Below, one piece after another: positions 17,552 through 57,116 of a stretch of 64,000 nt of DNA; positions within the stretch are counted from its first letter, which is position 1; every line of letters begins with the position of its first letter. The notes below the pieces were generated by a model, which saw only the letters and a program-made list of their open reading frames with translations, was not told the DNA's origin and made no database searches. The translations under genes and the position numbers were made by a program. This DNA is from an uncultured virus (IMG/VR IMGVR_UViG_3300010262_000228) (Duplodnaviria; Heunggongvirae; Uroviricota; Caudoviricetes), in IMG/VR virus record IMGVR_UViG_3300010262_000228; one strand, 5' to 3'.

Positions 17552-17571
17552 GGTAACACCTCAAAACGCAA

Positions 17572-18864: not shown

Positions 18865-18875
18865 GTTGCTTCTCC

Positions 18876-20621: not shown

Positions 20622-20636
20622 AGTTCACCTCCAGGA

Positions 20637-21707: not shown

Positions 21708-21709
21708 AT

Positions 21710-22477: not shown

Positions 22478-22490
22478 AGTTGTATCTCCT

Positions 22491-23036: not shown

Positions 23037-23048
23037 TTTCTATCCTCC

Positions 23049-24167: not shown

Positions 24168-24171
24168 AGTT

Positions 24172-25566: not shown

Positions 25567-25590
25567 AGTATTCGACCACCAAAAGAAGAG

Positions 25591-42032: not shown

Positions 42033-42775
42033 GAACACCGACCAACCTCCCCAAAATCAAACGGATTGCCCATACATTACTGAATACCGATATCAAGCTG
42101 ACCAACTATTCTCCGGTGATTGTAAAACATCCCTTCACCAACAGCGGAATCAGCGCGGTGCGTGGTGAAAACGGAAACTTGGTAATGGTTGACCTGGTTA
42201 ACAAGCCAGAAGACCTTGCCGCTTGGAGAAAGCAGGTCGGCGGGCTGATTGACAGTTCTAAATCCGCCTATGAAGTCTATCTCATGGTGGACAAGACCTA
42301 CTCTCTTGCTTTTATCAAGTTCGCAGAGCCGTTTCTATCAGATCAGGATCTGGGACAGATTTTATCAAGTGCCTGGATTGCAAATGAAGCGCCAAGCAGT
42401 GACCCTAACATAAACAAGCGCAATCTCGTTTCGCTGTTCAGATCCATTCCTCATGAATACCTCATGGACGCAGAGGAACTTCAGCAGCTTGAAGAACTGG
42501 AAGATCCCGTTACCATCTACCGTGGTGTCCGCTCAGAAAAGCAGAAGCACATCAAAAATCTCTCCTGGACACTGGATAGAGAAAAGGCAGAATGGTTTGC
42601 ACATCGTTTCAGCAGAGAGGGAACCGTGTACGAAGCACAAATTGAAAAGAAACATATTCTGGCTCTGTTTAATGGTCGTGGTGAATCAGAGGTTGTTGTA
42701 GATCCCAAATATCTTCAAAATCTTACCGTGGCCATGGAGCAGGAGCAGGGGTTTCAAATGGGAGGGATGACATGA
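42029..42775 (+). CDS. Putative R-S-E clade ADP-ribosyltransferase-fold protein, ends EQEQGFQMGGMT
   Basis: IYRG ... LSWT....A.WFA ... GESEVVV. Confidence 0.6.
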   Translation: MRTPTNLPKIKRIAHTLLNTDIKLTNYSPVIVKHPFTNSGISAVRGENGNLVMVDLVNKPEDLAAWRKQVGGLIDSSKSAYEVYLMVDKTYSLAFIKFAEPFLSDQDLGQILSSAWIANEAPSSDPNINKRNLVSLFRSIPHEYLMDAEELQQLEELEDPVTIYRGVRSEKQKHIKNLSWTLDREKAEWFAHRFSREGTVYEAQIEKKHILALFNGRGESEVVVDPKYLQNLTVAMEQEQGFQMGGMT

Positions 42776-43905
42776 CCATGATGCTGCACTTAGTACGAGG
42801 GAATAATCATGAGGGAGCTAACCTCGTCCTGCCTGCGACACCAGCCGATGTGGGCCAAGCCTATGCGAGACTGGATGCGGTGACTCGGTATCCCGGCGAA
42901 GTAAAAATCGACAGCGTAACCTGCTCTGTGAGAAATCTTGAGAACTACTTAAAAGGCATGGATTTGGATAGACCTACGGTCATGCTGCGTCTCAATCAGT
43001 TGGCTGAGAAAGTTGAGCAAATGACCAGCTTGGAAAAGAAAATCTTCTCCGGTGCTTTGGATGGTGAGTCTATCAATGGTCTGGATGATATCCTCCATGT
43101 TGCAAGCCACCTCCACGATTATGTTTTGATTGAGGATGTAGGTTCCGACCGCAGCCTGGGCGAATACATGATTGAAACAGGGCTGTTCGATGATTGCCCG
43201 AAAGAGCTCCGTCACTACCTCGATGCTGTTGCCATCGGCGCTGAAGCCTACAGCAACTGCGGCGGTGCCTATACCCTTGATGGGTATGTGCTCCGCAAGG
43301 AAAACGCCACATTCCGCCTTGCAGAAAACCAGGACATGGGTGGTGGGCATATGGTCTTTAAGCTGTTGCTTCGCTCCCAGGAAACATCCATCAATCTGAT
43401 TCTCCCGGCCACGGAGGAACAGTTGGAGCGGGTTTTGCAAAAACTCCATATTGATGAGTTCGCACAGGCAAAAGTGGAAATCATCGATGCAATCCCTTAC
43501 GCCAAGGAACTCATTCCTGACTGTTGCATAAGCATAGAGGAAGCAAACGACCTTGCCCTGGGAATTGAAGAGATGCAACAGAGCGATGGGCAACTGCTCA
43601 AATTCTTCTCTGCTCTGGCAGTTGAGCAACCAGAAACCTTCAGCGAGGCATATCAGATTGCCCTGAATCTGGATGACTACGAACGTGTCCCGGCAGATAT
43701 GGACGAATATGGTCGCATGGTTCTGCGCCGCTCCGGTATGGATGACGAGCTGATGGACATGATCGACGGCTACATGGACTTCGCTGGACTCGGGGAGTTC
43801 TATGTAGAAGAAAATGTTGTACGAACGACTGACTTCGGTATGGTCCGGCGCTGTAGTGCCCCCTTCGAGCCGGAGGAACAGTCTTTACAGATGGGAGGAA
43901 TGTAA
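42772..43905 (+). CDS. Acidic ArdA-like protein with two internal repeats, ends EEQSLQMGGM
   Basis: L.LPAT twice; SLGEYMI..G....PKELRHYLD..AIG and DEYGR...YMDFAGLG. Confidence 0.55.
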   Translation: MTMMLHLVRGNNHEGANLVLPATPADVGQAYARLDAVTRYPGEVKIDSVTCSVRNLENYLKGMDLDRPTVMLRLNQLAEKVEQMTSLEKKIFSGALDGESINGLDDILHVASHLHDYVLIEDVGSDRSLGEYMIETGLFDDCPKELRHYLDAVAIGAEAYSNCGGAYTLDGYVLRKENATFRLAENQDMGGGHMVFKLLLRSQETSINLILPATEEQLERVLQKLHIDEFAQAKVEIIDAIPYAKELIPDCCISIEEANDLALGIEEMQQSDGQLLKFFSALAVEQPETFSEAYQIALNLDDYERVPADMDEYGRMVLRRSGMDDELMDMIDGYMDFAGLGEFYVEENVVRTTDFGMVRRCSAPFEPEEQSLQMGGM

Positions 43906-43908
43906 CCG

Positions 43909-44022
43909 ATGAAGAAAACGATGCTTATTATCACCGCAGCAGCTGCGGCCATTGGTGCCGCTGTTGCCGGTTATTTCTGCTTTGCACATCCGCAGCGGTA
44001 TGTAGGGAGGCATCTGAAGTGA
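43909..44022 (+). CDS. 37-aa hydrophobic peptide (not in ORF track)
   Basis: MKKTMLIITAAAAAIGAAVAGYFCFAHPQRYVGRHLK; GGAGG RBS; stop overlaps next GTG. Confidence 0.6.
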   Translation: MKKTMLIITAAAAAIGAAVAGYFCFAHPQRYVGRHLK

Positions 44023-44357
44023 CGAAAGAAACCTTCTGCAAAGCCATGCGGCTACGAGATCAGCAGGTCAAAAAGAACCGCGCCTTTGAGGAGTTTGTCC
44101 TCGACCATTACGACTTTCCGCGGGAACAGTACAGAAACGTGGTGCTTTCGCCTGCAATGACGGGACTTGCTCTTATCATTGCAGACTACTTCCTGATTGA
44201 CCCAAGCCTCGTCAATTACACGATCAATCTGGAAGACCGTTCAGATCCTTTCACCTTCCCTGCACTCGTTGGTTTGCAAGGCCGTCCTCCTCGTACATAC
44301 GAAGGGCTCTATGATTTATTTGACAGAATGAGGAGGAAGAAACTTGGTATCTCGTGA
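44019..44357 (+). CDS. Hypothetical protein
   Basis: Coupled start, GGAGG RBS. Confidence 0.6.
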   Translation: MTKETFCKAMRLRDQQVKKNRAFEEFVLDHYDFPREQYRNVVLSPAMTGLALIIADYFLIDPSLVNYTINLEDRSDPFTFPALVGLQGRPPRTYEGLYDLFDRMRRKKLGIS

Positions 44358-44688
44358 ATTATATCGGGCAGGAATATGGGCCTACCAGAATCAACGGAAA
44401 TTCAATCGAGAGGTCAACGATGTTGTCCAGATGATGATGGGGATTCCAGGTCCATTTGTATCGAGGGGTCCCCAGATTTGTTCTGATGAGGACATCCTTG
44501 AATTAACCATTGCTGCTGTCGAGGACACACATGGCGTAACGAAGAAACTGCTCAACGATGAGGTGTTCTACAAAGACGATACCAGAATGATAGCTATCTC
44601 CATAAGCGGAGATGAGCCTATGGAGTTCCGCATTGAGGACATCGACGATGCCTACGACTGCATTGCCGCTCTGCGCATGGTGCGCTAA
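44344..44688 (+). CDS. Hypothetical protein
   Basis: GAGGAGG RBS before TTG. Confidence 0.6.
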   Translation: MVSRELYRAGIWAYQNQRKFNREVNDVVQMMMGIPGPFVSRGPQICSDEDILELTIAAVEDTHGVTKKLLNDEVFYKDDTRMIAISISGDEPMEFRIEDIDDAYDCIAALRMVR

Positions 44689-44776
44689 ATAGAATTCTTT
44701 CCGCTATTGTCGATGGCTATTTCATACAAGCTGTGGTATGTTGTGTGCTTACAAACAGGGAAAGGAGGTGTACGCA

Positions 44777-44923
44777 ATGTCGGCAATCCCTAAGAAAATC
44801 TTAGCTGTTCAACTTCGCCCCGCTTCAGTTGATGAGGCGGGGCTATTCTATGCCCTCACGCCTGGGTGTAGCCGACACTGGTGGCCGAACGGCCTGAAGT
44901 TGAACAGCCAGAAGAACAAATGA
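44777..44923 (+). pseudogene. Short ORF, possibly an internally deleted remnant of a longer ICE gene
   Basis: Strong AAAGGAGG RBS but only about 48 codons; LRPAS.DEAGLFY and WWP motifs look like fragments of a larger ICE protein (recollection, unverified). Confidence 0.35.
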
Positions 44924-44939
44924 TAGGAGGAATCTACAA

Positions 44940-45923
44940 ATGAGCAAGCTACCACAGGGATGGCTGGACTTCCTACGGGAACAGCACCCCATTGGAAGCA
45001 GAGTCCAGGTCAAAGAAATGGCTGATTCGCAAAGCACCATTCAACCCGGAGCGACAGGTAAGCTGCTGGAGATCGAAGACGATGGCGCGTTCATTGTTGG
45101 CTGGGATCGAGGCGGCGTATCGGCTGTCACCATCGGCAAGGATCGCTTCTCTCTTCTGCAGCCGGAGCCCACAACGCTGAAACTGTATATGCCCTTGACC
45201 GCCGACCTCTATGCCTACGACGAATGGGGCGACCTGGAGCCTGAAAGCGAGGAACTGAACGGAACCGGCTTGTTACCCTACGAAGCCCAGATTGTATCCG
45301 CATTGGTAAAGTACCGCGATCCTGCAGAAGCAGAGCGTGGCATTATGAATTGGTACGATACGCAGGACAGCGTGAATGCCAAAGTCCGTTCCGCTGTCTT
45401 CACTGCTGAGATTCGCGACCACGCACTCTGGGGCGTGACCGAATGCCGGGTCATTGGTGACCTGACCCCGGACGAGTTGAGTACGCTGAAGGACTACATC
45501 ACCGGCCAAGCCGCAGACGGCTGGGGCGAAGGCTTCGAACAGCGTGAACTGCAAAACGAAGACGGTGAACTCTATGTACATCTCTGGAGCTTCGGCGATT
45601 GGGAAATCAAAACGGAGCAAGAGCAATTCGGTCCGAAGGTAGCCGAAGGACTGCCTGAAACCTGTTACTCTGTCCTGCACAGCACCGGCGAGCTGATTAT
45701 TCTCAAACGCGGTGAGTCTGGGTACTACAGGGTAGACTTCAGCTCCCCTGACAAAGAGGAGAACATGGAGCTGGCGGATCACTACAACGAAAAGCTGGGT
45801 GTCACATCCGAGCAGCGTCAGGCCATGGAAGTTGGGAGCATGGTCGGATGGAATGTACCTGGTGCCGATCCGCAGAACTATGTTTGCGAAGAGCCGCAGA
45901 TGGGAGGGATGACACTTGGCTGA
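44940..45923 (+). CDS. DUF4314-containing ICE protein, ends EEPQMGGMTLG
   Basis: LR..HP.GSRV....M.D....I.PG.TG.....D.G...V.WD.G; GQAADGWGEGFEQ; GSM.GW.VPGADP. Confidence 0.75.
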   Translation: MSKLPQGWLDFLREQHPIGSRVQVKEMADSQSTIQPGATGKLLEIEDDGAFIVGWDRGGVSAVTIGKDRFSLLQPEPTTLKLYMPLTADLYAYDEWGDLEPESEELNGTGLLPYEAQIVSALVKYRDPAEAERGIMNWYDTQDSVNAKVRSAVFTAEIRDHALWGVTECRVIGDLTPDELSTLKDYITGQAADGWGEGFEQRELQNEDGELYVHLWSFGDWEIKTEQEQFGPKVAEGLPETCYSVLHSTGELIILKRGESGYYRVDFSSPDKEENMELADHYNEKLGVTSEQRQAMEVGSMVGWNVPGADPQNYVCEEPQMGGMTLG

Positions 45924-47526
45924 GATTTTCAAGGTCGAACTCATTTCAGAGGAGGATCTGTGCTGTGAACTTTCGCTTCCCGCAGGTGACCACCGCCTGT
46001 TCGATGCCTATGAACAGCTTCGACAGCCTCTGGCCGAACCCATCCGATGGGACATCTTAGGATGCCGGGGCTATGAGTATCTCGTCCCCTATATCCAGGA
46101 AGAGAATCTTCTTGCTGTAAATGAGCTTGCTCGGCGGCTATCGGAGATGAGCGACACCCAACGCTCTGCCTTTGAAGGCATCACAAAAATGGAGCTTGAA
46201 CTGCGGCGCGGCCCCTTCGGTGTGGAGGATCTCCTTCACTATGCGCAGAGCGTTGACCTCTGCCATGTAGTGCAGGAAGCAACAGATGATGCCTCTCTCG
46301 GGCGTTTCTACGCAGAAAATGGCTTCATTCCAGAAGTGGAAGACCTGTCCGATGATGTATTCGAATTGCTGGACTTCGCCAAACTCGGCAGAAAGAGTCG
46401 TGGAGAAGAAAAAGGCGTCTTCACGCACAATGGCTATGTTGTGCTTCACGATCCAATCGACCGCACCCCTGTCCCTGTCCAAGATCAGCCGCAGAAGCCC
46501 GTATATGTGTTCCTGCTGAAGTTGGAGCCGTACCCCTTTGAAAATGAGAGCACTACGGCGGTTGAGCTGAAGTTGCCTGCGAGTGAGGAGCAGCTCCAGC
46601 AGGCTGTCGAGAAACTTGCAGTGGGAAACTGGAGCGAGGGACTCTATACCATCGAGGATAGTATAATCCAAGATGTCTTGGATGAAAGCGATACCTTGGT
46701 TGGGCTAAGAGCACTGAACACTCTTGCAAACGAGATCTCAGCTCTCTCCCAAGACGAACTCCCCAAATACAAAGCGCTGTTGGAAGTGACACAGTGTTGC
46801 AGCGTAGAGGGGGCTCTTGAGTATATTAGAGCACTTGACCAGTACAAGATGGACAGCAATATCCGCAGTTATGAGGAACTTGCCCGTGAAGATGTCTGCG
46901 GCATTGTCGAAGCTAGTACCGCAGATATGCTAATCAGGCACTTGGATCTGACTGCTTATGGGCGAGATCTGGCAACACAAGAACATGGCTATCTCACTGC
47001 CTATGGATACCTCGCGCGCAATGACATGGAGCCAATCCATACCGAAATGCAAGAGTTCAAGGTTTATGCGATGGATGGTCATGGTGCAACTGGTGGTTTG
47101 CCAGAGGGTTATGTCGTCGCTAGAAATCAGGCGGGAGCAGAACGGTTTCTGAAAGAGCGTGGGGTAGACTTGGCGAAAGTCTGTATTGTCCCCGAACACC
47201 CTGTAGAAAGAGAGGATAGCGAAATGAATTGGTTTGATAAAGGCCGTCAGATGGCCGAAGTGAACAAGAAGTTATATCCGCCCGGCACAAGGATCGAACT
47301 TGTCTCTATGGGGAACGATCCTCGTCCCATCGAGCCCGGCACCAGAGGAACTGTCGACCTCGTCGATGATATGGGAACCCTGCATTGCACCTTCGACAAC
47401 GGGCGCAAACTGGGTGTCTGCCTCGAGGAAGACAGAATCCGTGTCATTCGAGGCCAGGAAGTCGCCCAGCAGGAACAGGCCATTGAGCCCCAACATGGTC
47501 CTGAGATGAGCGGCATGTCTATGTAA
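45916..47526 (+). CDS. ArdA-like repeats fused to C-terminal DUF4314, ends GPEMSGMSM
   Basis: SLGRFY..NG...LDFAKLGR; LDLTAYGRD; YPPGTRIEL..M.NDPRPIEPGTRGTV..VDD.G.LH. Confidence 0.7.
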   Translation: MAEIFKVELISEEDLCCELSLPAGDHRLFDAYEQLRQPLAEPIRWDILGCRGYEYLVPYIQEENLLAVNELARRLSEMSDTQRSAFEGITKMELELRRGPFGVEDLLHYAQSVDLCHVVQEATDDASLGRFYAENGFIPEVEDLSDDVFELLDFAKLGRKSRGEEKGVFTHNGYVVLHDPIDRTPVPVQDQPQKPVYVFLLKLEPYPFENESTTAVELKLPASEEQLQQAVEKLAVGNWSEGLYTIEDSIIQDVLDESDTLVGLRALNTLANEISALSQDELPKYKALLEVTQCCSVEGALEYIRALDQYKMDSNIRSYEELAREDVCGIVEASTADMLIRHLDLTAYGRDLATQEHGYLTAYGYLARNDMEPIHTEMQEFKVYAMDGHGATGGLPEGYVVARNQAGAERFLKERGVDLAKVCIVPEHPVEREDSEMNWFDKGRQMAEVNKKLYPPGTRIELVSMGNDPRPIEPGTRGTVDLVDDMGTLHCTFDNGRKLGVCLEEDRIRVIRGQEVAQQEQAIEPQHGPEMSGMSM

Positions 47527-48541: not shown

Positions 48542-49042
48542 TTAGATTTTGACAAGTCCGCTGTTGGAAGGCAGGAAACTGAATACTTCAGGCGGGTTCT
48601 GGCCCCACAGTTTGAGAACATCAAGCTGATGCTTGTTCAATGTGTCCCGGCAATTACTGAGCGCACAGAAATCTCTCTTGAAGTCCTTTGTGCTTTTGCT
48701 CCGAGTCAACTCCGTGATGGTCTTAATATCGGTGCAGCGAACCAGCTCGTCCTCCAGATTTCTTACTTGAGGTAAAAATACAACCTTGGTCTTAGCGCAA
48801 TACTTGCTGACCAGTTCGATATTTTGCTTCAAGTAATCCGTGATTTCCACATCCGTGTCAAAGACGAATACCACAATCGTCCCCGGCTGGATCGTAATCA
48901 ACTGTGAGCGTGGAATCAGGCTGTTAATCACATTCAGGACTTTGACTCTTCCGGCAAGGATTTTTTGCGGGTTCTCTTTCAAAGCGTTTAAGAGTGTGGC
49001 CTCGCACTTTCCTTCGGCGAAATAAATGCAGTTACTCCTCAT
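48542..49042 (-). CDS. TOPRIM-like (RloB/AbiLii-like) protein
   Basis: YFAEGKCE and VFDTD acidic motifs, NLEDEL; coupled to ABC ATPase. Confidence 0.65.
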   Translation of the reverse strand: MRSNCIYFAEGKCEATLLNALKENPQKILAGRVKVLNVINSLIPRSQLITIQPGTIVVFVFDTDVEITDYLKQNIELVSKYCAKTKVVFLPQVRNLEDELVRCTDIKTITELTRSKSTKDFKRDFCALSNCRDTLNKHQLDVLKLWGQNPPEVFSFLPSNSGLVKI

Positions 49043-50138
49043 CAGACCACCCCTTCTCCAAGGTGTTCAGCAGGGAGTCATCAGGCAAAGAAGAGAACAC
49101 ATCATTCTCTACGGCACAACGAACGGAGTCAGTATTTCGCTTAAGGAATTCGGAGGCAAACGCAACTTTAACATACCCTTCGCCATCCACAACGCTCTTA
49201 TGAAGGAAAGCGAAAGAATGCTTCGGAAGGTTGAGATCGAGCATATCTGTGTTATGCGTCGTGAAGATTAATTGCTCATGCTCTTTTAAGTGATCCAACA
49301 TGATTGCGAAGATGCGCTTCTCAATATCCGTTTGGATGTAAGAGAAGTGTTCGTCGCAGTAGTAGAAGCAAGCCGGGCCGGAAAGAATCGAAGCGAGGAA
49401 GATTGCGATGTCTACACCTTCGGCTGTTCCGCTGGAAAGAATCTCTTTGTTCAGGAGCTTACCATCCTGGATGATAATTTCCGCGCCCTTTCGCCGGATA
49501 ATAAAGGAGTCTCGCAGATCCTTGGATTCAGACACATCAGTAAGCGTAGGATCGAGCGTCCCAATTACAGCTTTCAAAGTGCGAAGCAAAGTCTTTTTAT
49601 CAATATCCTGAATCTTCAAAGATGTTTCAATTTCGGGATAAGCAAATCGGTAATTAAGCTCACCAAACACACGCTTCAATGTTTTGGGCTCGTAGTCGAT
49701 TACCAGAAGTCCATCTGCCAACCGTGCAGCGCATTTCTCATAGGTATCTCGCTCACCGATTTCCGTTTGTGCATGAGAAAGCACAATACTATCATTCGCC
49801 GCATCAATCACTGCTGACACGCGGTGTAGTGTATACCCCTCATTTACGAAGTCGATAGTAAAGTGACCTGCCGTCTTAGCGGGCACCATTTCAAACAGAA
49901 GCGCCGTGTTTCCAGATCCGAGGAACTTGAACATTCTGAGCAAGGATTTGCCCAGGCTGGTCTTGCCAGTGGCGTTCGCGCCCATGAGAATAACAGCCTT
50001 CTTGTACCGGAAGAAAGGGCGACCAGGCAGATGCTCATCCTCAATGAGTGAGTTTACGATTTTTTTAGGATAAGAGAAATTGATTTCGAAATCTGTAAAG
50101 CCATAGATGTTTTTCAGGCTTAGATTCATCACAACCAT
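49032..50138 (-). CDS. ABC-type AAA_21 ATPase (RloA/AbiLi-like)
   Basis: GANATGKT, LSSGT signature, YCDE Walker B, IFTTH. Confidence 0.85.
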   Translation of the reverse strand: MVVMNLSLKNIYGFTDFEINFSYPKKIVNSLIEDEHLPGRPFFRYKKAVILMGANATGKTSLGKSLLRMFKFLGSGNTALLFEMVPAKTAGHFTIDFVNEGYTLHRVSAVIDAANDSIVLSHAQTEIGERDTYEKCAARLADGLLVIDYEPKTLKRVFGELNYRFAYPEIETSLKIQDIDKKTLLRTLKAVIGTLDPTLTDVSESKDLRDSFIIRRKGAEIIIQDGKLLNKEILSSGTAEGVDIAIFLASILSGPACFYYCDEHFSYIQTDIEKRIFAIMLDHLKEHEQLIFTTHNTDMLDLNLPKHSFAFLHKSVVDGEGYVKVAFASEFLKRNTDSVRCAVENDVFSSLPDDSLLNTLEKGWSDEE

Positions 50139-50578: not shown

Positions 50579-52120
50579 ATGGGAAAGGCAAAACTCATCT
50601 CCCCCGTCAGCGGGAAAATGATACCCAAGAAAAAGGTCGCCGCGTACTGCCGCGTATCTTCCAACTCTGCTGATCAGTTGAACTCCTACGCTAACCAGAT
50701 CAAGGTATACACCAGACTTATCCGTGATAACCCTGCATGGGATATGGTGGAAATTTTCGCAGATGAAGGTCTCAGCGGAATGAAGGCAGACAACCGTGCC
50801 GAGTTCCAACGGATGATCCAGATGTGCGAAACGAAGCAAATCGACCTTATCGTGACTAAGTCAATCTCCCGCTTCGCAAGAAATGTAAAAGAGGCACTGG
50901 CCTATGTCCGCAAGCTAAAGCTGATGGGAATTGGTGTCCAATTCGAGAAAGAGGGCATCAACACCCTGGCCCTTGGCGATGAAATGTTGCTCAGTACCTT
51001 TACTGCCATCGCACAGGAGGAATCCAAAGCCATCTCACAGCATCAACGGCTCTCTATCGTGAAGAGAATGGATGCTGGCGAGTATGTGGACAGCAATGCT
51101 CCCTATGGATTCCGCCTCGTTAACAAAGCACTCGCTGTGTATGAGCCGGAAGCGGAAATCGTGCGCTGGATATATAACGCATATCTCAATGGCTGGTCTA
51201 CTTCTGAAATTGCGAGAGATCTGACTCAGAGAGGTATCCCGACCAAAACTGGAAAGAGCAAGTGGACATCCTCCCGAGTGGCATTCATCCTTACGAATGA
51301 GCGATACAAGGGAGATTGCAAATACCAAAAGACCTATCGTGATACAACTGTTCCCTTCCGTCAGTATAAGAACCGTGGACAGGAGGACATGTACTATGCC
51401 ACTGGTACCCATACGCCCCTTCTCGATGCCGAAATCTTCGAGAAGGTGCAGGTGCTGATGCAGCAGAGAAAACAGCAATTCGCTAAAACTGAAACTCAAA
51501 ATATCTATCCGCTGACAAGCCGCATTCGGTGTTCCGAATGCGGCTCTTTCTATCGCCGGAAGATACAGAACGGCACAATCAAGTGGGTCTGTGCAAACCA
51601 TCTCAACGACACCCACTCCTGTGATTCCTTCTACTACAGTGAGGCGCGAATCTACGATGCCTTCATCACCATGGTCAATAAGCTGCGCTTCTGCGAGGAA
51701 GATATTCTGGGTCTTATCATCTCCAAGCTGGACTACGCAGCCGTCGAGTACAAAAGAAACAATCGTGAAGCAACACAGTTAAGCCAAAGCATAGCGGAAC
51801 TGAACGCAAAACTCCTTATGCTGGAGCAGCTCCGAGCCAAGAACTATCTTGCCTTGGATGTCTACCAGAGTCAGGCATTGCAACTCCGAAATGAGATAAA
51901 CAAGCACAAGGAAGAGCGTAGCCGAGCGTTCGAGTCCCCAATGCTGAAGATGCTGGAAGAAGTAAAGAAGCTGAAAGCTCTTCTGGATGAAATGGAAGAG
52001 CCGCTAGAAGAATTCAACGAAAAGCTGTTTCAGGAACTGATTCTGGAAATCACGGTAAACAACCGTGACGAAATGACCTTCACCGTACTTGGTGGCCTGA
52101 AGTTCACGGAACTGCTGTAG
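50579..52120 (+). CDS. Large serine recombinase
   Basis: AYCRVSS, DEGLSG, TKSISRFARN, recombinase domain, CSEC zinc ribbon. Confidence 0.92.
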   Translation: MGKAKLISPVSGKMIPKKKVAAYCRVSSNSADQLNSYANQIKVYTRLIRDNPAWDMVEIFADEGLSGMKADNRAEFQRMIQMCETKQIDLIVTKSISRFARNVKEALAYVRKLKLMGIGVQFEKEGINTLALGDEMLLSTFTAIAQEESKAISQHQRLSIVKRMDAGEYVDSNAPYGFRLVNKALAVYEPEAEIVRWIYNAYLNGWSTSEIARDLTQRGIPTKTGKSKWTSSRVAFILTNERYKGDCKYQKTYRDTTVPFRQYKNRGQEDMYYATGTHTPLLDAEIFEKVQVLMQQRKQQFAKTETQNIYPLTSRIRCSECGSFYRRKIQNGTIKWVCANHLNDTHSCDSFYYSEARIYDAFITMVNKLRFCEEDILGLIISKLDYAAVEYKRNNREATQLSQSIAELNAKLLMLEQLRAKNYLALDVYQSQALQLRNEINKHKEERSRAFESPMLKMLEEVKKLKALLDEMEEPLEEFNEKLFQELILEITVNNRDEMTFTVLGGLKFTELL

Positions 52121-52129
52121 GAGGAAGCG

Positions 52130-53041
52130 ATGAAAAAGATACGCTATGTTCCATACGGATACACCATAAGAGATGGCCATACAGTCATCGAACACAGCGA
52201 AGCCGATATCATTCGTCAGATCTTCGAGGTGTATATCAACGGTGCCTCCCTCAAGGAGATTGCCGACGACCTTACCCGTAGGAAGATTCCTTACACAGAA
52301 AAGACGGATGTATGGGACAAGGCACGTATCGCCCGAATCATTGACAATGCACGCTACATAGGTGCTGACAGCTATGACCCCATTATCGATGAAAACACCT
52401 ACGAAGAGGCATCGGCTGTAAAGAGTGCTCGACAGAGGAATATCGTCACTCAAGAGTGCGAGGGCATCAAACTTCTACGCAACCGTGTCCGCTGTGCCAA
52501 GTGCGGCGCACCAATGACACGCCGAATCTGCTCAAAACGGCAAACAAAAGAGAGTTGGACTTGCACCAATGATGAGTGTGGGTGCAGGCTCCGCATCAGC
52601 GACACGGAGCTTCTCTTGAAAATCAACCTGATTATGAACCGCATTATAGAGAACAGCCAGTTGGTCATCCCAAAACGGAGAGCCAAAAAGCAGGATTCGC
52701 CAACAGTAGCCAGCTTGCAGGCAGAAATTCAGAAGGAATTGAGTTCAGGCCAGCCGAGCGAAACACTGATCATCTCCAAATTAGGCGAGATTGCCTCCCA
52801 ACTTTATCGGGAAACCAATGAGAAGGAGCGCATCGCCGCACAAATCCTCAAAAAGAGAATCCTGCTTATGAAGCCACAGGAGAACTTCAACTGCGACTAC
52901 TTCGCCGACCTAATTGACATTGTATATCTGGACTGCACCACTGGTGAAGTTCAGCTCCAAACGAAAACATCAACCATCATAGGAGGGGTGAACAGCGATG
53001 GAGGTAAAGAAAATCCCGAAGAGAACCGTCACGCTGATTGA
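52130..53041 (+). CDS. Recombinase-domain protein lacking the catalytic resolvase domain
   Basis: Begins at PYGY recombinase domain; CAKC zinc ribbon; no YxRVS. Confidence 0.85.
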   Translation: MKKIRYVPYGYTIRDGHTVIEHSEADIIRQIFEVYINGASLKEIADDLTRRKIPYTEKTDVWDKARIARIIDNARYIGADSYDPIIDENTYEEASAVKSARQRNIVTQECEGIKLLRNRVRCAKCGAPMTRRICSKRQTKESWTCTNDECGCRLRISDTELLLKINLIMNRIIENSQLVIPKRRAKKQDSPTVASLQAEIQKELSSGQPSETLIISKLGEIASQLYRETNEKERIAAQILKKRILLMKPQENFNCDYFADLIDIVYLDCTTGEVQLQTKTSTIIGGVNSDGGKENPEENRHAD

Positions 53042-54629
53042 GCCTAAACGCTCTATCCTTGTCGACAAAGGGAAGTACGACCAGAAGCGTGTTGCCGCCT
53101 ACTGCCGTGTATCGACAGACAGCGAAGAACAGCTTACTTCCTACGAAAACCAGATGAAAGCCTACACTGAGATGATAGGCAGGCGTACAGATTGGCAGTT
53201 TGCGGGTATGTACGCTGATGAGGGCATCTCAGGCACTCGTGCAGATATGCGTCCCAGGTTCACGAAGATGATCGATGACTGCTTGTCCGGCAAAATCGAC
53301 TACATCATCACCAAATCTGTTTCACGCTTCGCTCGAAACACAGTAGATTGTCTGGACACGGTGCGTATGCTCAAAGCCCGAGGGATTGGCGTCTTCTTCG
53401 AAGAGCAAAACATCGACACCCTGAAGAGTGACAGTGAACTCTACCTCGTCATCTATGCAGGCTTCGCTCAGTCCGAATCAGAGAGCATCAGCAAGAACAT
53501 TACCTGGACCTATCGGAAAAACTTTGAAGATGGCAAGCCCATATACCGCTATAAGAACTGGCTGGGCTATAAGAAGGGCGAAGATGGCGAACCCGAAATT
53601 GTGCCTGAAGAAGCCGCTATCGTGGAGCGCATCTTCAATATGTTCCTGTCTGGAAGTTCAACTCAGGCAATTGCCAATGCCCTCGCAAGCGAAAACATCG
53701 AAATCCCCGGCAAGAAGTTCGTATTCAGTAATCACATGATTCAAAGCATTCTGCGCAATGAGAAATACTGCGGTGACTGCATCCTTCAGAAGACAGTTAC
53801 GATTGATTGCATCGAAAAGAAAAGGAAGCCCAACGAGGGCGAAGCGCCTATGTACATCGTTGAGAATAGCCATCCGGCAATTATCAGCCGAACGATATTC
53901 AACCGCACACAGGAGGAACTGAGCCGCAGAGGAACGATCAAACCCAAGTCGCAGAAAAATACCTTTACTGCCTCTGGCCATCATTCTAAGTACGCCCTTA
54001 CCGACATCTTGAAATGCGGTGAGTGTGGGACAAGCTATCGCAGAGTGACTTGGACATCGCAAGGAAAACACCGAGTGGTCTGGCGCTGTATCAGCAGACT
54101 GGACTATGGAAAGAAATATTGCACGGATTCCGTCACTGTTCCTGAACCAGCACTGCAGGCCGCAATCGTCCGAGCGCTCAAAAAATTCAATCAGGAGAAC
54201 GAGGCAACATACATTGCTCTGATGAGAGCCACTATCGGCGAAGCCATCGGACTGAATGGAGGATCAGAAGAGATTGACCTGCTGACTCGACGCATCGATG
54301 CACTGAACAAGCGAATGCTGGAACTGGTCAATGATACAGTCAGCAGTGGCGGCGACATGGAAAGCTGTGAAGATGAATTCAAGGAAATCTCAGAACAGAT
54401 CGAGCAACTGAACAGCCGAATCGATGCCATCCGTGCCGCCTACATCAACGACCGCTCCTACGAGGATCGCTTGTCGGAGATTCAGCAGATCATCGATGAA
54501 CGAGCAAATCACGAGGACGAATACGATGATGCCATTGTCCGCCAGATGATTGAGTGCATCAAGGTCTATAAGGGTGGCCGACTTACCGTTATCTTCGGAG
54601 GCGGCTATGAAGTAGAAGAAACTCTGTAA
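52998..54629 (+). CDS. Large serine recombinase
   Basis: AYCRVSTD, DEGISGT, TKSVSRFARN, CGEC zinc ribbon, coiled coil. Confidence 0.92.
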   Translation: MEVKKIPKRTVTLIEPKRSILVDKGKYDQKRVAAYCRVSTDSEEQLTSYENQMKAYTEMIGRRTDWQFAGMYADEGISGTRADMRPRFTKMIDDCLSGKIDYIITKSVSRFARNTVDCLDTVRMLKARGIGVFFEEQNIDTLKSDSELYLVIYAGFAQSESESISKNITWTYRKNFEDGKPIYRYKNWLGYKKGEDGEPEIVPEEAAIVERIFNMFLSGSSTQAIANALASENIEIPGKKFVFSNHMIQSILRNEKYCGDCILQKTVTIDCIEKKRKPNEGEAPMYIVENSHPAIISRTIFNRTQEELSRRGTIKPKSQKNTFTASGHHSKYALTDILKCGECGTSYRRVTWTSQGKHRVVWRCISRLDYGKKYCTDSVTVPEPALQAAIVRALKKFNQENEATYIALMRATIGEAIGLNGGSEEIDLLTRRIDALNKRMLELVNDTVSSGGDMESCEDEFKEISEQIEQLNSRIDAIRAAYINDRSYEDRLSEIQQIIDERANHEDEYDDAIVRQMIECIKVYKGGRLTVIFGGGYEVEETL

Positions 54630-54791
54630 TACGCAGCTTTAGTATGTAAAAGAAATCCGACAATACGCAGGTTTGAAGTGATGTTTCCCCCTTTACCATC
54701 AGCACTGGCGATTAAACCAGCGGTTCAATGACATTGCTTACAAAGTGGATTATCATAAACTCAACACGAAATGAAAGCGAGGAGTAACGCC

Positions 54792-55442
54792 ATGAATTTG
54801 AAAGAAGCCTTTCGATTCCAAAATAAAATCCAGTCTCTGATGACGGAGGCTGATGGAATCCTGAGCCGGGAACAGAACATTACCAAGGTGCAAAACACCT
54901 ATCTTCGCAAAAAGGTAATGGCAGAGGCCGAGGACGAAACCACCATTGATGCGCCCAACACCGAGTACAGCGGCAGAATCACTGAAATGGCGATGTTCCT
55001 GCTCCACCTGCTCGACGAGCGAGAGAAGCTCAGTAGCGCAATTCACAAGGCCAAGGCTGGCCTGGATTTGCCTGCCGGTCTGGATGGCGAAGTCAGCCTG
55101 AATTCCAAGCGCCAGGAGATTGCGGGAACACTGCGCCGCATGGCAGCGCTGCGCAGCTCCGAGGTGGTCATCCCCAATGGCGGTACCGGCTATCGCTTTA
55201 ATAACGAGGGCAATCAGGTGTCCTACCGCTGTGATGTGAAGCGGGTGACCACCATTGACTTTGACCGCAACAAGATTCGGAAACTCTGTGCTGACCTGAG
55301 TAAGAAGTCCGATGAGATGTCTGCGGCGCTGGATATGGCGCTCATCAACACGGTCGTGGAATATGAGCAGCCCTTCGATGTCAATGACACCTTTGCGGAT
55401 ATCTTCGAGACCTTTGCTCCTGCGGAGGCAACCGAAGCATAA
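54792..55442 (+). CDS. Hypothetical helical protein (MNLKEAFRFQN...)
   Basis: GAGGAG RBS before ATG 54792; helical segments flanking GYRFNNEGNQVSY. Confidence 0.8.
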   Translation: MNLKEAFRFQNKIQSLMTEADGILSREQNITKVQNTYLRKKVMAEAEDETTIDAPNTEYSGRITEMAMFLLHLLDEREKLSSAIHKAKAGLDLPAGLDGEVSLNSKRQEIAGTLRRMAALRSSEVVIPNGGTGYRFNNEGNQVSYRCDVKRVTTIDFDRNKIRKLCADLSKKSDEMSAALDMALINTVVEYEQPFDVNDTFADIFETFAPAEATEA

Positions 55443-55468
55443 AGAAGCCCATGGCCTGTATCAGCCAT

Positions 55469-55852
55469 GGGGGATGCGGCAGGATAAGAGATCGTGGAGA
55501 TCGGTTCAGATGCAGACGAACTATAGTGCTGCATGATTCAAGATCAAACATCTACATAGATGATAAAAAGGACAATTGCTGTCTTTTGGGGAAAGGTTAG
55601 CAATCACCGCTTCGTCCATCGTTCTATCGATGTTTCATCATACGCACTTGCGTCAACTCTTTCTACCACCCATACTCCCTTACATCTCCATTCTGAAAAT
55701 AATGAGCGCCGGAATTCCGGAAGAGCCACTAACTGCTATGTGCCACCTGGCACAACAACGCCGCAATGATGGATTGCCGATATTTCGGTATCGAGCGACT
55801 ATCCGAACGGCAAAAATGGTCTAAGCTATCTTGGACTTCTGCCGTATCCCCC
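55469..55852 (+). ncRNA. Candidate 384-nt structured RNA
   Basis: Ends pair over 16 bp (55469-55484 / 55837-55852, two G-U); several internal hairpins; G-poor quasi-periodic centre. Confidence 0.55.
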
Positions 55853-56168
55853 AGAGCTGATACATTACACCCATAAAATGAGGTGAGCAGCAGGCTCTGG
55901 CCTGCTGCTCATTTACGATTATATTCAATTTTGGTTTTGCTGAAACAAGGATCTCCTCCATAGGAACATCCAGCAAAGCACCGAGAGCGTACAGGTTGTC
56001 AACGGTCGGCAGGCTCTTTCCACGCTGCCACTTGTAGATTGCTTGCGGTTCTTCAAAGCCGAAATAGGCTTGCAGATCCCGGACAGAAAGACCGCGTTCC
56101 TGGCGCAGACGCACGATGTTCTCGCCGGTGGCAACAGGGTCGATGACCGGAAATTGCTTGTAGGTCAT
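55821..56168 (-). CDS. XRE-family HTH regulator
   Basis: TGENI..LR..RGLSV.DLQ.YFGF..PQAIYKWQ.G..LP; GGAGG RBS before MTYKQ. Confidence 0.85.
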   Translation of the reverse strand: MTYKQFPVIDPVATGENIVRLRQERGLSVRDLQAYFGFEEPQAIYKWQRGKSLPTVDNLYALGALLDVPMEEILVSAKPKLNIIVNEQQARACCSPHFMGVMYQLWGIRQKSKIA

Positions 56169-56289
56169 GGCAATCGCCTCCAAATAAGTATTTCCCAAAA
56201 GGGAGTACCTCAGAATAAACGATAACCGGCGAAAAAGCAAGAGCAAAACAGAAATTGTAATAAGAATGATACATAACCGGAGGTGCTTC

Positions 56290-56664
56290 GTGAATCAGGA
56301 CTATAACCGTGACTGCTGTTGGACATTGGAACGCTTCTCTCTTCTCTATAATCACTTTGCCATTATTGATACTGACGAGTACCTGGCCGATTCGCTCTTT
56401 GTTCGACACAAGGTTCGAGTCTGGTTCAGCGCTGAGTTTGGCAAAGATGATAGCCCCTACCGAGTGATCATGTGTAAATGCAGAAAGAAAGATACGCCAA
56501 AGTTTCTGAGCGCCATTAAGGAGTTGCCCAATAAGATGCTTCTGTGCGGATATCAGGATTACCTGACTTTCTGCGCAGAACTTAGAAACAAGTTGGAAAC
56601 TGCGAAAGCAAATGGAGGTGTTGATCGCTATGCGCCGAATGGTTCCGCTCTCCAAACAAAGTAA
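56290..56664 (+). CDS. Hypothetical protein
   Basis: GGAGG RBS before GTG 56290. Confidence 0.65.
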   Translation: MNQDYNRDCCWTLERFSLLYNHFAIIDTDEYLADSLFVRHKVRVWFSAEFGKDDSPYRVIMCKCRKKDTPKFLSAIKELPNKMLLCGYQDYLTFCAELRNKLETAKANGGVDRYAPNGSALQTK

Positions 56665-56794
56665 GAAAGCCCAGAAGGAGTTTCATAACAAACAGCGCGG
56701 GTCATGGAACGGCATTTCGCCTGTGACTCGTGTCGTGCCGAATGGGAGGGCCTATGACAGAAATCGAATTAAACGAGAGACTCGCACAGATTGA
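56630..56794 (+). CDS. Small basic hypothetical protein
   Basis: GGAGG RBS; SKK.QKE....RG.W..I.PVTRV....AYDR. Confidence 0.6.
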   Translation: MRRMVPLSKQSKKAQKEFHNKQRGSWNGISPVTRVVPNGRAYDRNRIKRETRTD

Positions 56795-57116
56795 GGAGCA
56801 GCGCCTTGCATCTCTTCCCCCTGTATCCAAGCGTCGGACCGGACAGGCATATCGTCGGCGAATGCATATCAAGAAAAACGATGACCTTCTGAAAATCGTA
56901 ACAAGGCAATATGCGCCTCATGCCGGATATGTAGACTGGGGCTTTGATGGCCGCACGTTGCTTCACAGTGGCAAGTACATCAAGTATAAGAAGAACAGCA
57001 ACTGCCAGCGGTGGATGAAGCGAGAAACCAGTCGAAAATTCAGGCGACGGTTAGACTTGCCCCGCAAGGGCAATGCTTACCGCCGCCTGTTTGATTATTG
57101 GTGGACACTATATTGA
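56754..57116 (+). CDS. Basic hypothetical protein
   Basis: GGAGG RBS; R/K rich; ends YRRLFDYWWTLY. Confidence 0.6.
   Translation: MTEIELNERLAQIEEQRLASLPPVSKRRTGQAYRRRMHIKKNDDLLKIVTRQYAPHAGYVDWGFDGRTLLHSGKYIKYKKNSNCQRWMKRETSRKFRRRLDLPRKGNAYRRLFDYWWTLY

What the first reader, a model, noticed from the sequence alone, without database searches (positions are those of the whole stretch)
54792..55852. Unknown helical protein followed by a 384-nt closed RNA-like element: candidate new ribonucleoprotein system
Seen: 27 bp after the stop, GGGGGATGCGGCAGGA (55469-55484) is complementary to TTCTGCCGTATCCCCC (55837-55852). The only two imperfect positions are G-U pairs on the + strand, which favours RNA pairing over a DNA inverted repeat. 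Inside are further stems: ATGCAG/CTGCAT (55510-55534), AAAGGACA/TGTCTTTT, TGTGCCA/TGGCACA (55739-55754), GCAAT/ATTGC, GCCGA/TCGGT, and a near match GTTCAGAT (55504) / ATCCGAAC (55801). The ORFs there lack RBSs. The 3' arm overlaps the tail of the convergent XRE gene. Inference: a co-transcribed ncRNA partner of the protein.
Basis: partly seen in the sequence, partly recalled or inferred. Interest (0 to 1): 0.78.

Follow-up and report, generated by a model that had tools for sequence, protein, structure and literature searches.

The report
Conserved mobile-element RNA with partner protein
A folded RNA of about 400 bases, matching no catalogued RNA family, sits directly after a small protein gene of unknown function on conjugative elements and phages of gut bacteria, and looks like a new RNA-plus-protein module.

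Summary
The inverted repeat (55469-55484 / 55837-55852) is the inner part of a closing stem of at least 24 bp (55457-55484 / 55837-55864). In 45 non-redundant homologous loci this stem keeps pairing while its sequence changes: 95.3% of cells pair against 82.6% in shuffles, and 0 of 500 shuffles reach the observed value. G·U pairs outnumber A·C by 126 to 32, so the + strand is the one that folds.

Inside the stem is a near-invariant core, GGTTCAGnTGCAGAyGAAC…GCTGCA, with two interleaved stems, plus two further conserved blocks. No reading frame is conserved across the interior. Rfam 15 has no match.

Searches that started from the RNA core found a homologue of the 216-aa protein directly upstream in 27 of 27 viral-contig loci and 104 of 120 metagenome loci. 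Some of those proteins are only 31-36% identical to the window's. The module occurs on conjugative elements, including this window, and on phage contigs.

In four metatranscriptomes the contig over the element's interior is 4.7-18 times deeper than the contig over the gene.

The protein has no Pfam family. Its fold resembles the uncharacterised structure 3kdq, and it is predicted to form a homodimer.

Best reading: a new structured RNA coupled to a dedicated protein. Binding, RNA ends and function were not tested.

The parts
54728..54756 (+). promoter-like site (ATGACA, 17 nt spacer, TATCAT) upstream of the protein gene
   Evidence: 10 of 12 consensus matches. This is a pattern match only.
54792..55442 (+). 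gene of the 216-aa protein of unknown family, preceded by the RBS GAGGAG
   Evidence: no Pfam, PHROG, NCBIfam or PADLOC match; 3949 homologues; 1037 clusters at 50% identity. AF2 pLDDT 93.5; best fold match 3kdq at Z 10.8; homodimer score 0.75 against a best control of 0.17.
55448..55471 (+). hairpin 1 (CCCATGGC…GCCATGGG) just after the stop codon; its 3' half overlaps the outer closing stem, so the two pairings exclude each other
   Evidence: Similar gene-end hairpins are visible in other loci in the output.
55457..55484 (+). 5' arm of closing stem P1
   Evidence: 24 pairs, of which 20 show changes on both sides.
55500..55502 (+). 5' side of short helix P2 (ATC), pairing with GGT at 55818-55820
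   Evidence: columns 62-64 with 602-604: AU 26 and GC 17 at the first pair; CG 32 and UG 11 at the second.
55503..55534 (+). near-invariant core GGTTCAGATGCAGACGAACTATAGTGCTGCAT, formed by hairpin ATGCAG/CTGCAT and the interleaved GTTC/GAAC (candidate H-type pseudoknot)
   Evidence: The core is identical in loci whose proteins are only 31-36% identical. It occurs once in the window.
55535..55811 (+). variable interior with locus-specific hairpins and a G-poor stretch ending in the conserved ACATCTCCAT (55682-55691)
   Evidence: the motif was located in most of the 74 loci that have a core; 17% G and 35% C in the 110 nt around the motif; stop codons in all six frames in 39-43 of 45 sequences.
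55812..55826 (+). conserved 3' block AAAAATGGTCTAAGC, which holds the GGT partner of P2
55837..55864 (+). 3' arm of closing stem P1, lying inside the XRE ORF tail
55884..55911 (.). 12-bp GC-rich hairpin with a T-run on the - strand side, terminator-like for the XRE transcript; the XRE ORF reads through it as EQQAxACCS
   Evidence: amino-acid changes on the two sides mirror each other, so the hairpin covaries.
55821..56168 (-). convergent XRE-family (HTH_3) gene whose last ~35 codons overlap hairpin 2 and the 3' arm

Best explanation
The element is a previously undescribed family of structured non-coding RNA. It is about 390-450 nt on conjugative elements and about 500-550 nt in an AT-rich phage form. 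It is read from the + strand and encoded immediately after the gene of a roughly 205-220-aa protein family of unknown function. The two are inherited together as a two-part module of mobile elements of Bacillota.

Shown here:
- The stretch folds on the + strand. A long covarying stem closes it, and next to that stem is a near-invariant core with two interleaved stems.
- No reading frame is conserved across the interior.
- It is almost never found without the protein gene directly upstream.
- Its interior is several-fold over-represented in RNA libraries relative to both flanks.

Inferred:
- The RNA is made as the 3' part of the gene's transcript, starting from the promoter-like site at 54728-54756.
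- It is trimmed and accumulates because its structure protects it.
- It works together with the predicted homodimeric protein, most likely as a ribonucleoprotein.
- The module serves the mobile element after entry or during host takeover, perhaps as a counter-defence function. It sits at the end of ArdA anti-restriction arrays on some conjugative elements and next to tRNA genes on phage contigs.
- In the conjugative-element form, the RNA's 3' end is antisense to the tail of the convergent XRE repressor mRNA. That could couple expression of the module to the level of the repressor.

My odds: a functional + strand structured RNA 0.85; a functional partnership with the protein 0.6; direct binding 0.5; a counter-defence or establishment role 0.25.
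For: Conservation:
- blastn with window 55443-55920 hits the DNA downstream of the protein gene in 74 of 79 homologous loci that have at least 100 nt there. The 5' and 3' blocks are 75-97% identical, although the proteins are only 56-90% identical.

Structure:
- 66 of 80 loci have an arm pair of at least 12 bp spaced 340-410 nt apart, and the arm sequences differ between loci.
- On 45 non-redundant sequences, 41 pairs form in 95.3% of cells, against 82.6% in shuffles (0 of 500 shuffles reach the observed value) and 33-43% when the partners are slid.
- 28 pairs change on both sides, and 250 cells are compensatory against 71 expected.

Strand:
- G·U cells number 126 against 32 A·C.
- In three phage copies the closing-helix energy is -53.1, -40.5 and -46.9 kcal/mol on the + strand, against -35.0, -29.9 and -32.8 on the - strand.
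- The fold z-score is more negative on the + strand in 8 of 8 elements.

Non-coding:
- Only 2-6 of 45 sequences are free of stops in any one frame.

Linkage:
- The core pattern gave 27 viral-contig loci, and 27 of 27 have the protein directly upstream. In 18 of them the protein is 31-36% identical.
- A degenerate pattern gave 120 metagenome loci, 104 with the protein upstream. Of the 11 without it, 9 lack the hairpin's 3' half and are chance matches.
- Both copies in one complete genome carry the RNA.

RNA:
- In four metatranscriptome runs from four studies, the contig over 55505 to 55762-55845 (0 mismatches) has depth 358, 54, 82 and 240.
- The gene contig has depth 60, 11.5, 4.5 and 16.6, and the contig beyond 55901 has 13, 7, 3.6 and 5.

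Occurrence on phage contigs next to tRNA genes on the same strand argues against a conjugation-only DNA element.

Protein: confident model, predicted homodimer with score 0.75 against a best control of 0.17, runs agreeing in at least 95% of contacts, partner pLDDT at least 90. That mark was reached by 20 of 30 proteins solved as pairs of one chain and 1 of 23 solved as single chains.
Against: - No test of binding was possible, and the protein has no recognisable RNA-binding domain.
- The RNA-library evidence comes from assembled contigs. It gives no strand, no ends and only one depth figure per contig. The tool itself warns against ranking by depth.
- A hairpin lies between the stop codon and the closing stem. 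The only terminator-like T-runs found point along the - strand. A - strand transcript running on from the XRE gene across the element is therefore possible.
- The interleaved GTTC/GAAC stem never varies in the 45-sequence alignment, so it is untested by covariation. The only variants seen are single loci: GTTGA/TCAAC in L064 and GAAT in L231.
- One locus (L111) has a true core with no protein gene within 800 nt upstream.
- The interior is too divergent to align, so most of the fold is undefined.
- The ArdA neighbourhood is not universal: no ArdA in three phage records and none nearby in two genomes.
Confidence: 0.6

Rival explanations
1. The element is a cis-acting RNA with no dedicated protein partner. 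It would be a structured 3' UTR that stabilises or insulates the upstream operon and, by convergent overlap, acts as an antisense regulator of the XRE repressor mRNA. The protein gene would then be merely the last gene of that operon.
For: The 3' arm and 3' block lie inside the XRE ORF tail wherever the convergent XRE ORF could be read. The hairpin at 55884-55911 covaries and is terminator-like on the - strand. Binding was not tested.
Against: The RNA stays directly behind the same protein family on phage contigs. There the next gene is a tRNA on the same strand, and no XRE ORF was noted downstream, although none was searched for. The core is identical where the proteins are only 31-36% identical, which is more than a stabiliser would need. 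The genes upstream of the protein gene vary freely while the protein itself does not.
Confidence: 0.2
2. The element acts as single-stranded DNA of the + strand during conjugative transfer. It would be a single-strand origin or a single-strand promoter that folds in the transferred strand.
For: Folding is strand-specific with G·T wobbles, which single-stranded DNA also tolerates. The window is a conjugative element with a MobL relaxase, a coupling protein and a VirB4-like ATPase. Such elements are known to carry folded non-coding single-strand signals; this last point is from my own knowledge and no call tested it.
Against: The same element sits on 97-146 kb phage contigs beside an endolysin, a head protease and tRNA genes. 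Its interior is 4.7-18 times deeper than the gene in RNA libraries. It is tied to one protein family rather than to relaxase or origin regions.
Confidence: 0.07
3. The element is a DNA-level feature: terminal inverted repeats of a small non-autonomous mobile element, or a recombinase site linked to the three serine recombinase genes upstream.
For: The flanking inverted repeats are long, at 26 nt. Three large serine recombinase genes lie just upstream at 50579-54629.
Against: - The core occurs once in the 64 kb window.
- The element is always in the same place relative to the protein gene.
- The recombinases were not among the neighbours in any of the 13 other loci whose ORFs were listed. Pfam scans of three of those loci and five further ORFs found a recombinase upstream only in L012.
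- The 126 to 32 excess of G·T over A·C has no meaning for double-stranded repeats.
- The conserved unpaired blocks and the interior hairpin would go unexplained.
Confidence: 0.03

Closest known systems
ROOL and GOLLD large 'ornate' RNAs of phages and prophages
   Same: Large, elaborately folded RNAs of unknown function carried by mobile elements of Bacillota, often beside tRNA genes. In two phage copies here a tRNA-Lys gene follows the RNA about 65 nt downstream on the same strand. The properties of ROOL and GOLLD are from my own knowledge.
   Different: No match to any Rfam 15 model at E up to 10 in the window, nor at gathering score in four other loci. This RNA has an obligately linked protein gene, which as far as I recall those RNAs lack.
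omega-RNA/HEARO with IscB or TnpB
   Same: A structured RNA encoded directly at or after the 3' end of its partner protein gene on a mobile element, and inherited with it.
   Different: The protein is 216 aa with no nuclease or other Pfam domain. There is no sign of a guide segment or a transposon end. The RNA is closed by a long stem.
FinP antisense RNA with FinO/ProQ chaperone of F-like plasmids
   Same: An RNA and a small, largely helical protein on a conjugative element, with the RNA antisense to a regulator's mRNA. Here it is antisense to the XRE tail. The FinP-FinO account is from my own knowledge.
   Different: The RNA is about five times larger. No FinO/ProQ domain is found. The module also occurs on phage contigs where no convergent XRE ORF was seen next to it; no search for XRE was run there.
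Single-strand origins (ssoA-type) and single-strand promoters (Frpo/ssi) of plasmids
   Same: Strand-specific, highly folded, non-coding stretches of transferable elements with a few conserved unpaired motifs.
   Different: Present on phage contigs, enriched in RNA libraries, and tied to a protein gene.
PDB 3kdq, a protein of unknown function from Corynebacterium diphtheriae
   Same: Best structural match of the protein: Z 10.8, 147 of 152 residues aligned, rmsd 4.6; Foldseek probability 1.0. Uncharacterised phage proteins in BFVD share the fold.
   Different: 14% sequence identity, no profile match in the PDB, and no known function, so the match gives no mechanism.

Membership tests
Any family of Rfam 15 (including ROOL, GOLLD, HEARO, OLE, raiA, 6S, introns, ribozymes) | match to the family's covariance model | tested here: not met
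   the only hits at E up to 10 in window 54000-57000 are a miRNA and two snoRNA models, all far below gathering score, and none lies on the element; only tRNAs reach gathering score in L108, L042, L005 and L024.
Structured non-coding RNA (generic criteria) | secondary structure conserved through compensatory changes | tested here: met
   95.3% of cells paired against 82.6% in shuffles (0 of 500 reach it). 28 of 41 pairs change on both sides. Slid controls pair in 33-43% of cells.
Structured non-coding RNA (generic criteria) | strand-specific pairing (G·U rather than A·C) | tested here: met
   126 G·U cells against 32 A·C. Searches agree.
Structured non-coding RNA (generic criteria) | no conserved reading frame | tested here: met
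   each of the six frames is free of stops in only 2-6 of 45 sequences.
Structured non-coding RNA (generic criteria) | a discrete transcript of the right strand and size | tested here: inconclusive
   the interior contig is 4.7-18 times deeper than the gene contig in 4 of 4 RNA runs. These are contigs, so strand and ends are unknown.
   Only co-inheritance is shown. The complex tool takes proteins only.
Single-strand origin or single-strand promoter of conjugative/rolling-circle elements | confined to replicons that pass through a single-stranded stage | tested here: not met
   also found on 97-146 kb phage contigs with endolysin, head protease and tRNA genes.
Single-strand origin or single-strand promoter of conjugative/rolling-circle elements | family-specific conserved motifs (RSB and CS-6 in ssoA) | not tested
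   I know these motifs only from memory, and no model was at hand.
Type III toxin-antitoxin (ToxIN-like) | antitoxin RNA made of tandem direct repeats upstream of the toxin gene | tested here: not met
   no tandem repeat family in the element. The RNA lies downstream of the gene.
omega-RNA with IscB/TnpB | partner protein carries RuvC (and HNH) nuclease domains | tested here: not met
   no Pfam domain in the 216-aa protein.
MITE or other element bounded by terminal inverted repeats | several copies at unrelated sites | tested here: not met
   one copy in the window; always directly behind the same gene.
Intrinsic terminator (hairpin 55884-55911 only) | GC-rich hairpin followed by a T-run | tested here: met
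   met on the - strand (12 pairs, tail CCTCATTTTA). No + strand terminator was called.

The most novel reading that the evidence does not exclude
This is a new class of ribonucleoprotein encoded by mobile elements. A homodimeric protein with a fold of unknown function is bound to a stem-closed RNA of 400-550 nt with a pseudoknotted core. Conjugative elements and phages of gut Bacillota would deploy it against a conserved host machine or defence system. The near-invariance of the RNA core, while the protein drifts to about 32% identity, would mean the core is read by something the host keeps constant, not only by its own protein.
Probability: 0.3. Interest if true: 0.9.

Novelty: categorically new. 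Interest (0 to 1): 0.8.

Why it matters
Large, highly structured bacterial RNAs are rare. Several of the known ones turned out to be ribozymes, guide RNAs or unusual assemblies.

This RNA is well defined by covariation and matches nothing in Rfam 15. The protein family has 3949 homologues at 90% clustering and 1037 clusters at 50% identity. It is carried by conjugative elements and phages of gut anaerobes, and it appears abundant in gut and wastewater metatranscriptomes.

The RNA comes with a dedicated protein of unknown fold family, which gives a direct handle for biochemistry and structure work. Several cultured isolates carry the module, among them Dysosmobacter segnis BX15, Flintibacter faecis BX5 and Hominicoprocola fusiformis (record titles). 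The open question of what the RNA does can therefore be tested directly.

Tried and rejected
Searches that found nothing:
- Rfam at a permissive threshold on the window, and at gathering score on four loci.
- blastn of the element against PLSDB plasmids and INPHARED phages.
- tblastn of the window protein against both collections, and of the phage-type protein against phages.
- A PDB sequence profile search.
- PHROGs, NCBIfam and PADLOC for the protein.
- Literature searches for the core sequence, for structured RNA with ArdA or conjugative terms, and for 3kdq/DUF7873. I saw the listings only and found nothing relevant.
- Earlier findings of this scan.
- The ESM Atlas gave only 'hypothetical protein' clusters and a weak lead to DUF7873, carried by 26% of one cluster. 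Pfam did not confirm it.

Things that could not be run:
- No whole genome is held for the window.
- MAFFT Q-INS-i could not run because a component is missing.

Ideas tested and dropped:
- A global MAFFT alignment of 112 elements was too gappy, at 1419 columns, to define interior helices. Mutual information on A2 recovered only the outer helices and one extra pair in the core loop.
- A general link to ArdA. There is none in three phage records and none near the module in two genomes.
- A link to the RdRP-like polymerase seen two genes upstream in phage contig L108. Relatives occur in 2 of 5 carrier genomes, at places not near the module loci, although contig names and numbers could not be matched.
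- A conserved small ORF in the interior.

Weak hint, not counted as evidence: adapter read-through at 55808 (run X9) and 54793 (run X3). Its orientation would fit a + strand RNA if the libraries are dUTP-stranded. That rests on adapter sequences recalled from memory and an unknown library type.
Full report
OBSERVATION

GGGGGATGCGGCAGGA at 55469-55484 pairs with TTCTGCCGTATCCCCC at 55837-55852 over 16 positions, two of them G·T wobbles on the + strand. The pairing begins 27 nt after the stop codon of a 216-aa ORF (54792-55442). The repeat finder extends the arms to 26 nt, 55457-55482 / 55839-55864, at 88% Watson-Crick complementarity.

As RNA, the 384-nt stretch folds at -131.8 kcal/mol, z = -6.1 against dinucleotide shuffles. 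The reverse strand reaches only z = -3.1. The core sequence occurs once in the 64 kb window.

CONTEXT IN THE WINDOW

The window is part of a conjugative element:
- a VirB4/TraG-like ATPase at 1810-3666
- a MobL relaxase at 7129-8613
- a Toprim primase at 8610-10133
- a coupling protein at 10143-12161

An array of ArdA-domain and DUF4314 proteins lies at 40812-47526. An AbiLi-like ATPase (49032-50138) and three large serine recombinase genes (50579-54629) lie between that array and the 216-aa gene.

The recombinases are not conserved neighbours. They did not appear next to the gene in any of the 13 other loci whose ORFs I listed. Pfam scans of three of those loci and of five further ORFs found a recombinase upstream only in L012. 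In L042 the gene is the last of a + strand array that begins with an ArdA-domain protein.

Downstream, on the opposite strand, is an XRE-family gene (55821-56168, HTH_3 E 2.9e-8).

THE ELEMENT IS CONSERVED BEHIND HOMOLOGUES OF THE PROTEIN

The protein has 3949 relatives at E <= 1e-3 in the 90%-clustered collection, all without a name or a Pfam domain. It has 1037 clusters at 50% identity.

The search for related loci returned 80 loci from species-representative genomes, mostly Oscillospiraceae, Lachnospiraceae and other Clostridia. L001 is identical to the window over the protein and the 478 nt compared.

blastn with window 55443-55920 hit the first 800 nt downstream of the gene in 74 of the 79 loci that have at least 100 nt there. 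Two blocks are conserved:
- a 5' block, window ~55472-55533, mostly 75-90% identical and up to 97%
- a 3' block, window ~55809-55919

The middle is diverged, but its length is kept.

THE STRUCTURE COVARIES

A simple search for perfect arms, allowing at most two G·U pairs, found a pair of at least 12 bp in 66 of 80 loci. The arms sit just upstream of the core and 340-410 nt further on. Their sequences differ between loci, for example TTGCTCCGACTATCAC/GTGATAGTCGGAGCAG and CGGGGAAAGAAGGAAT/ATTCCTTCTTTCCCCG.

I aligned 45 elements that are less than 93% identical to one another (A2). They were picked from the 58 loci that had all anchors; the rest were dropped as redundant or incomplete.

RNAalifold predicted 37 pairs, 28 of them with compensatory changes. 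I added the four pairs of the interleaved stem and counted:
- 95.3% of 1841 cells pair, against 82.6% in shuffles. 0 of 500 shuffles reach the observed value.
- Only 33-43% of cells pair when the partners are slid by 1-3 columns.
- 250 cells are compensatory, against 71 expected.

The helices are:
- P1, 24 pairs (55457-55484 / 55837-55864), of which 20 change on both sides.
- A short P2, in which the three bases before GGTTCAG pair with GGT of the 3' block AAATGGT. Its first pair is A-U in 26 sequences and G-C in 17.
- The core hairpin GTGCAG/CTGCAC, whose two outer pairs covary.

One more pair inside the core loop switches between U-A (30 sequences) and C-G (15 sequences). It follows the two main clades, so it may reflect a single event.

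The GTTC/GAAC stem, interleaved with the core hairpin, would make an H-type pseudoknot. It never varies in the alignment and is therefore untested. The only variants I saw are GTTGA/TCAAC in L064 and GAAT, which keeps pairing through a G·U, in L231.

WHICH STRAND FOLDS

Over the 37 nested pairs there are 1448 Watson-Crick cells, 126 G·U cells and 32 A·C cells. On the - strand, the 126 G·U cells would be mismatches.

In the AT-rich phage form the closing helix runs for about 50 bp with 8-9 G·U pairs. Its energy is -53.1, -40.5 and -46.9 kcal/mol on the + strand, against -35.0, -29.9 and -32.8 on the - strand.

I folded eight diverse elements with my own dinucleotide shuffles. The + strand z-score (-4.8 to -8.7) was more negative than the - strand's (-3.2 to -5.05) in 8 of 8. 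With 30 nt removed from each end, it was more negative in 7 of 8.

So the + strand, the sense strand of the protein gene, is the one that folds.

NOT CODING

Between the core and the 3' block, each of the six frames is free of stops in only 2-6 of 45 sequences. The roughly 110 nt ending in the conserved ACATCTCCAT (55682-55691) are G-poor, at 17% G and 35% C.

THE XRE OVERLAP

In most loci where a convergent XRE-like ORF could be read, it runs through a GC-rich hairpin (window 55884-55911) and the 3' arm before it stops. The hairpin reads as EQQAxACCS. Where one side changes (Q to R, E to G, Q to P), the mirrored codon changes too (C to R, S to P, C to G). So it is the hairpin that is under selection.

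After the hairpin the reading frame differs between groups, so the tail is conserved as nucleic acid and not as protein. The T-run next to the hairpin lies on the - strand side, which makes it terminator-like for the XRE transcript. No + strand terminator was called. A second - strand terminator-like site coincides with hairpin 1 (55448-55471).

These points leave a - strand read-through transcript possible. They count against the simplest co-transcription picture.

LINKAGE OF RNA AND PROTEIN, TESTED FROM THE RNA SIDE

Viral contigs. The 25-nt core pattern found 27 loci. All 27 have a homologue of the protein ending about 80-100 nt upstream on the same strand:
- 18 are only 31-36% identical to the window's protein
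- 1 is a partial match at 40%
- 8 are 57-79% identical

Metagenome contigs. They break down as follows:
- 104 have the protein upstream.
- 5 hold fewer than 300 nt upstream.
- 11 show none. Nine of these lack the 3' half of the core hairpin and are chance matches. One (L211) holds only 300 nt upstream, and its translation shows the protein's C-terminal motif. One (L111) is a true core behind a NUDIX-like gene with no protein homologue.

Other observations:
- The N-terminus MNLKEAFR(F/Y)QN is identical between the window protein and a phage-type protein that is 36% identical overall.
- In one complete genome both copies of the gene are followed by the RNA.
- A distant homologue (E 3e-19, L232) is followed by a different AT-rich stretch, closed by a stem of about 26 bp some 330 nt apart, without the core. 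This suggests the architecture outlives the sequence, but it is a single case.
- The gene is sporadic. It was found in 2 of 300 genomes drawn evenly from the class, as expected for cargo of mobile elements.

PHAGE CONTEXT

Three IMG/VR records of 97-146 kb, with CheckV completeness 63-88%, carry the module. Around it are an exonuclease, an endolysin, a head maturation protease, PhoH and an integrase.

In L108 and L110 a tRNA-Lys(UUU) gene follows the RNA about 65 nt after the end of the closing helix, on the same strand. No ArdA is present in these records.

This context argues against reading the element as a conjugation-specific single-strand DNA signal.

RNA LIBRARIES

Eleven of the 19 listed runs that hold the stretch are on record as RNA. 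I laid four metatranscriptome runs from four studies; all are Logan contigs.

In each run a contig with no mismatches covers the interior, from 55505 to 55845, 55820, 55762 or 55808.

| Run | Interior contig depth | Gene contig depth | Depth beyond 55901 |
|---|---|---|---|
| X3 | 357.7 | 60.3 | 13.4 |
| X5 | 53.5 | 11.5 | 7.3 |
| X7 | 81.6 | 4.5 | 3.6 |
| X9 | 239.7 | 16.6 | 5.2 |

The common break at 55505-55534 is the conserved core, which is a branch point of the assembly graph and not an RNA end.

Contigs give no strand and no ends, and the tool warns against ranking by depth. I take this as moderate evidence that an RNA covering the interior accumulates above both flanks.

THE PROTEIN

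AlphaFold2 on a 41-row alignment gives pLDDT 93.5 and pTM 0.73. The model has long helices (3-25, 60-89, 96-119, 159-186) and two beta hairpins (123-153).

- The only match that covers most of the chain is 3kdq, an uncharacterised protein of Corynebacterium diphtheriae: Z 10.8, 147 residues aligned, rmsd 4.6; Foldseek probability 1.0 at E 0.085.
- BFVD gives uncharacterised phage proteins, the best at E 2.3e-4.
- A two-copy prediction passed its controls, with score 0.75 against a best control of 0.17. The runs agree in at least 95% of contacts, and the partner pLDDT is at least 90. That mark was reached by 20 of 30 proteins solved as pairs of one chain and 1 of 23 solved as single chains. The model supports a homodimer but does not show one.

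INTERPRETATION

The data fit a new family of structured RNA made from the + strand and functionally tied to a dedicated protein on mobile elements.

Co-transcription, trimming and binding are inferences. So is any role. The position at the end of anti-restriction arrays on some conjugative elements, and beside tRNA genes on phages, hints at an entry or counter-defence function, but the ArdA link is not general.

The core stays identical while the protein drifts to about 32% identity. That suggests the core is constrained by more than its own protein.

Rivals:
- A purely cis-acting or antisense RNA: about 0.2.
- A single-strand DNA signal: about 0.07.
- A DNA-level repeat: about 0.03.

COMPARISON WITH WHAT IS KNOWN

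No Rfam 15 family matches. No Pfam, PHROG, NCBIfam or PADLOC family matches the protein. Literature searches for the core sequence and for related terms found nothing relevant (listings only).

The nearest analogies are generic:
- large ornate phage RNAs such as ROOL and GOLLD
- RNA-protein gene pairs such as omega-RNA with IscB or TnpB
- FinP with FinO on F-like plasmids

The module meets the defining features of none of them.

Noticed in passing
window 50579-54629: Three large serine recombinase genes in tandem (513, 303 and 543 aa). The middle one lacks the catalytic resolvase domain. With the AbiLi-like ATPase at 49032-50138, they look like an insertion between the ArdA array and the RNA module. 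They were not among the neighbours listed in 13 other loci.
   Followed up: partly
window 40812-47526: An array of four large proteins with ArdA anti-restriction domains, two of them fused to DUF4314 or DUF6329.
   Followed up: no
window 55884-55911 and XRE ORF 55821-56168: The XRE ORF reads through a terminator-like hairpin, coded as EQQAxACCS, and stops only inside the RNA element. If transcription ended at that hairpin, the mRNA would have no stop codon. Amino-acid changes on the two sides mirror each other across loci.
   Followed up: partly
L108:3809-6442 (phage contig), with relatives in L109 and L110: An 877-aa protein two genes upstream of the module matches Pfam RdRP (PF05183, E 1e-10, above cut-off) and phrog_8308. 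It may be a single-subunit polymerase of the cellular-RdRP/YonO type; the YonO comparison is from my own knowledge. Relatives in 2 of 5 carrier genomes lie at places not near the module loci.
   Followed up: partly
L108:8650-8723 and L110:8854-8927: A tRNA-Lys(UUU) gene follows the RNA on the same strand, about 65 nt after the end of the closing helix. tRNA-Tyr, tRNA-Met and tRNA-Glu genes lie further on.
   Followed up: no
L111 (metagenome contig), core at 801: A true copy of the RNA core with no homologue of the protein within 800 nt upstream. A NUDIX-like ORF lies there instead. It may be a truncated or rearranged module.
   Followed up: no
L232 (G293:C35:168700-170800): A distant homologue of the protein (E 3e-19) is followed by an unrelated AT-rich stretch closed by a stem of about 26 bp roughly 330 nt apart, without the conserved core.
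   Followed up: partly
window 12567-27731, - strand: A long operon with three radical-SAM proteins, a Ser/Thr kinase, a PP2C phosphatase, an FHA protein, a ClpB-like AAA ATPase, and MORN and DUF4236 proteins. It may be a cargo or defence-like system of the conjugative element.
   Followed up: no
window 54793 and 55808: Contigs of two RNA runs carry sequencing-adapter letters directly at these places (table 7), which may mark RNA fragment ends. I recognised the adapters from memory, so this is not evidence.
   Followed up: no
window 55448-55471 versus 55457-55484: The gene-end hairpin and the outer part of the closing stem use the same bases (GCCATGGG), so the two structures exclude each other. 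Similar gene-end hairpins, some with the stop codon in the loop, are visible in other loci.
   Followed up: no
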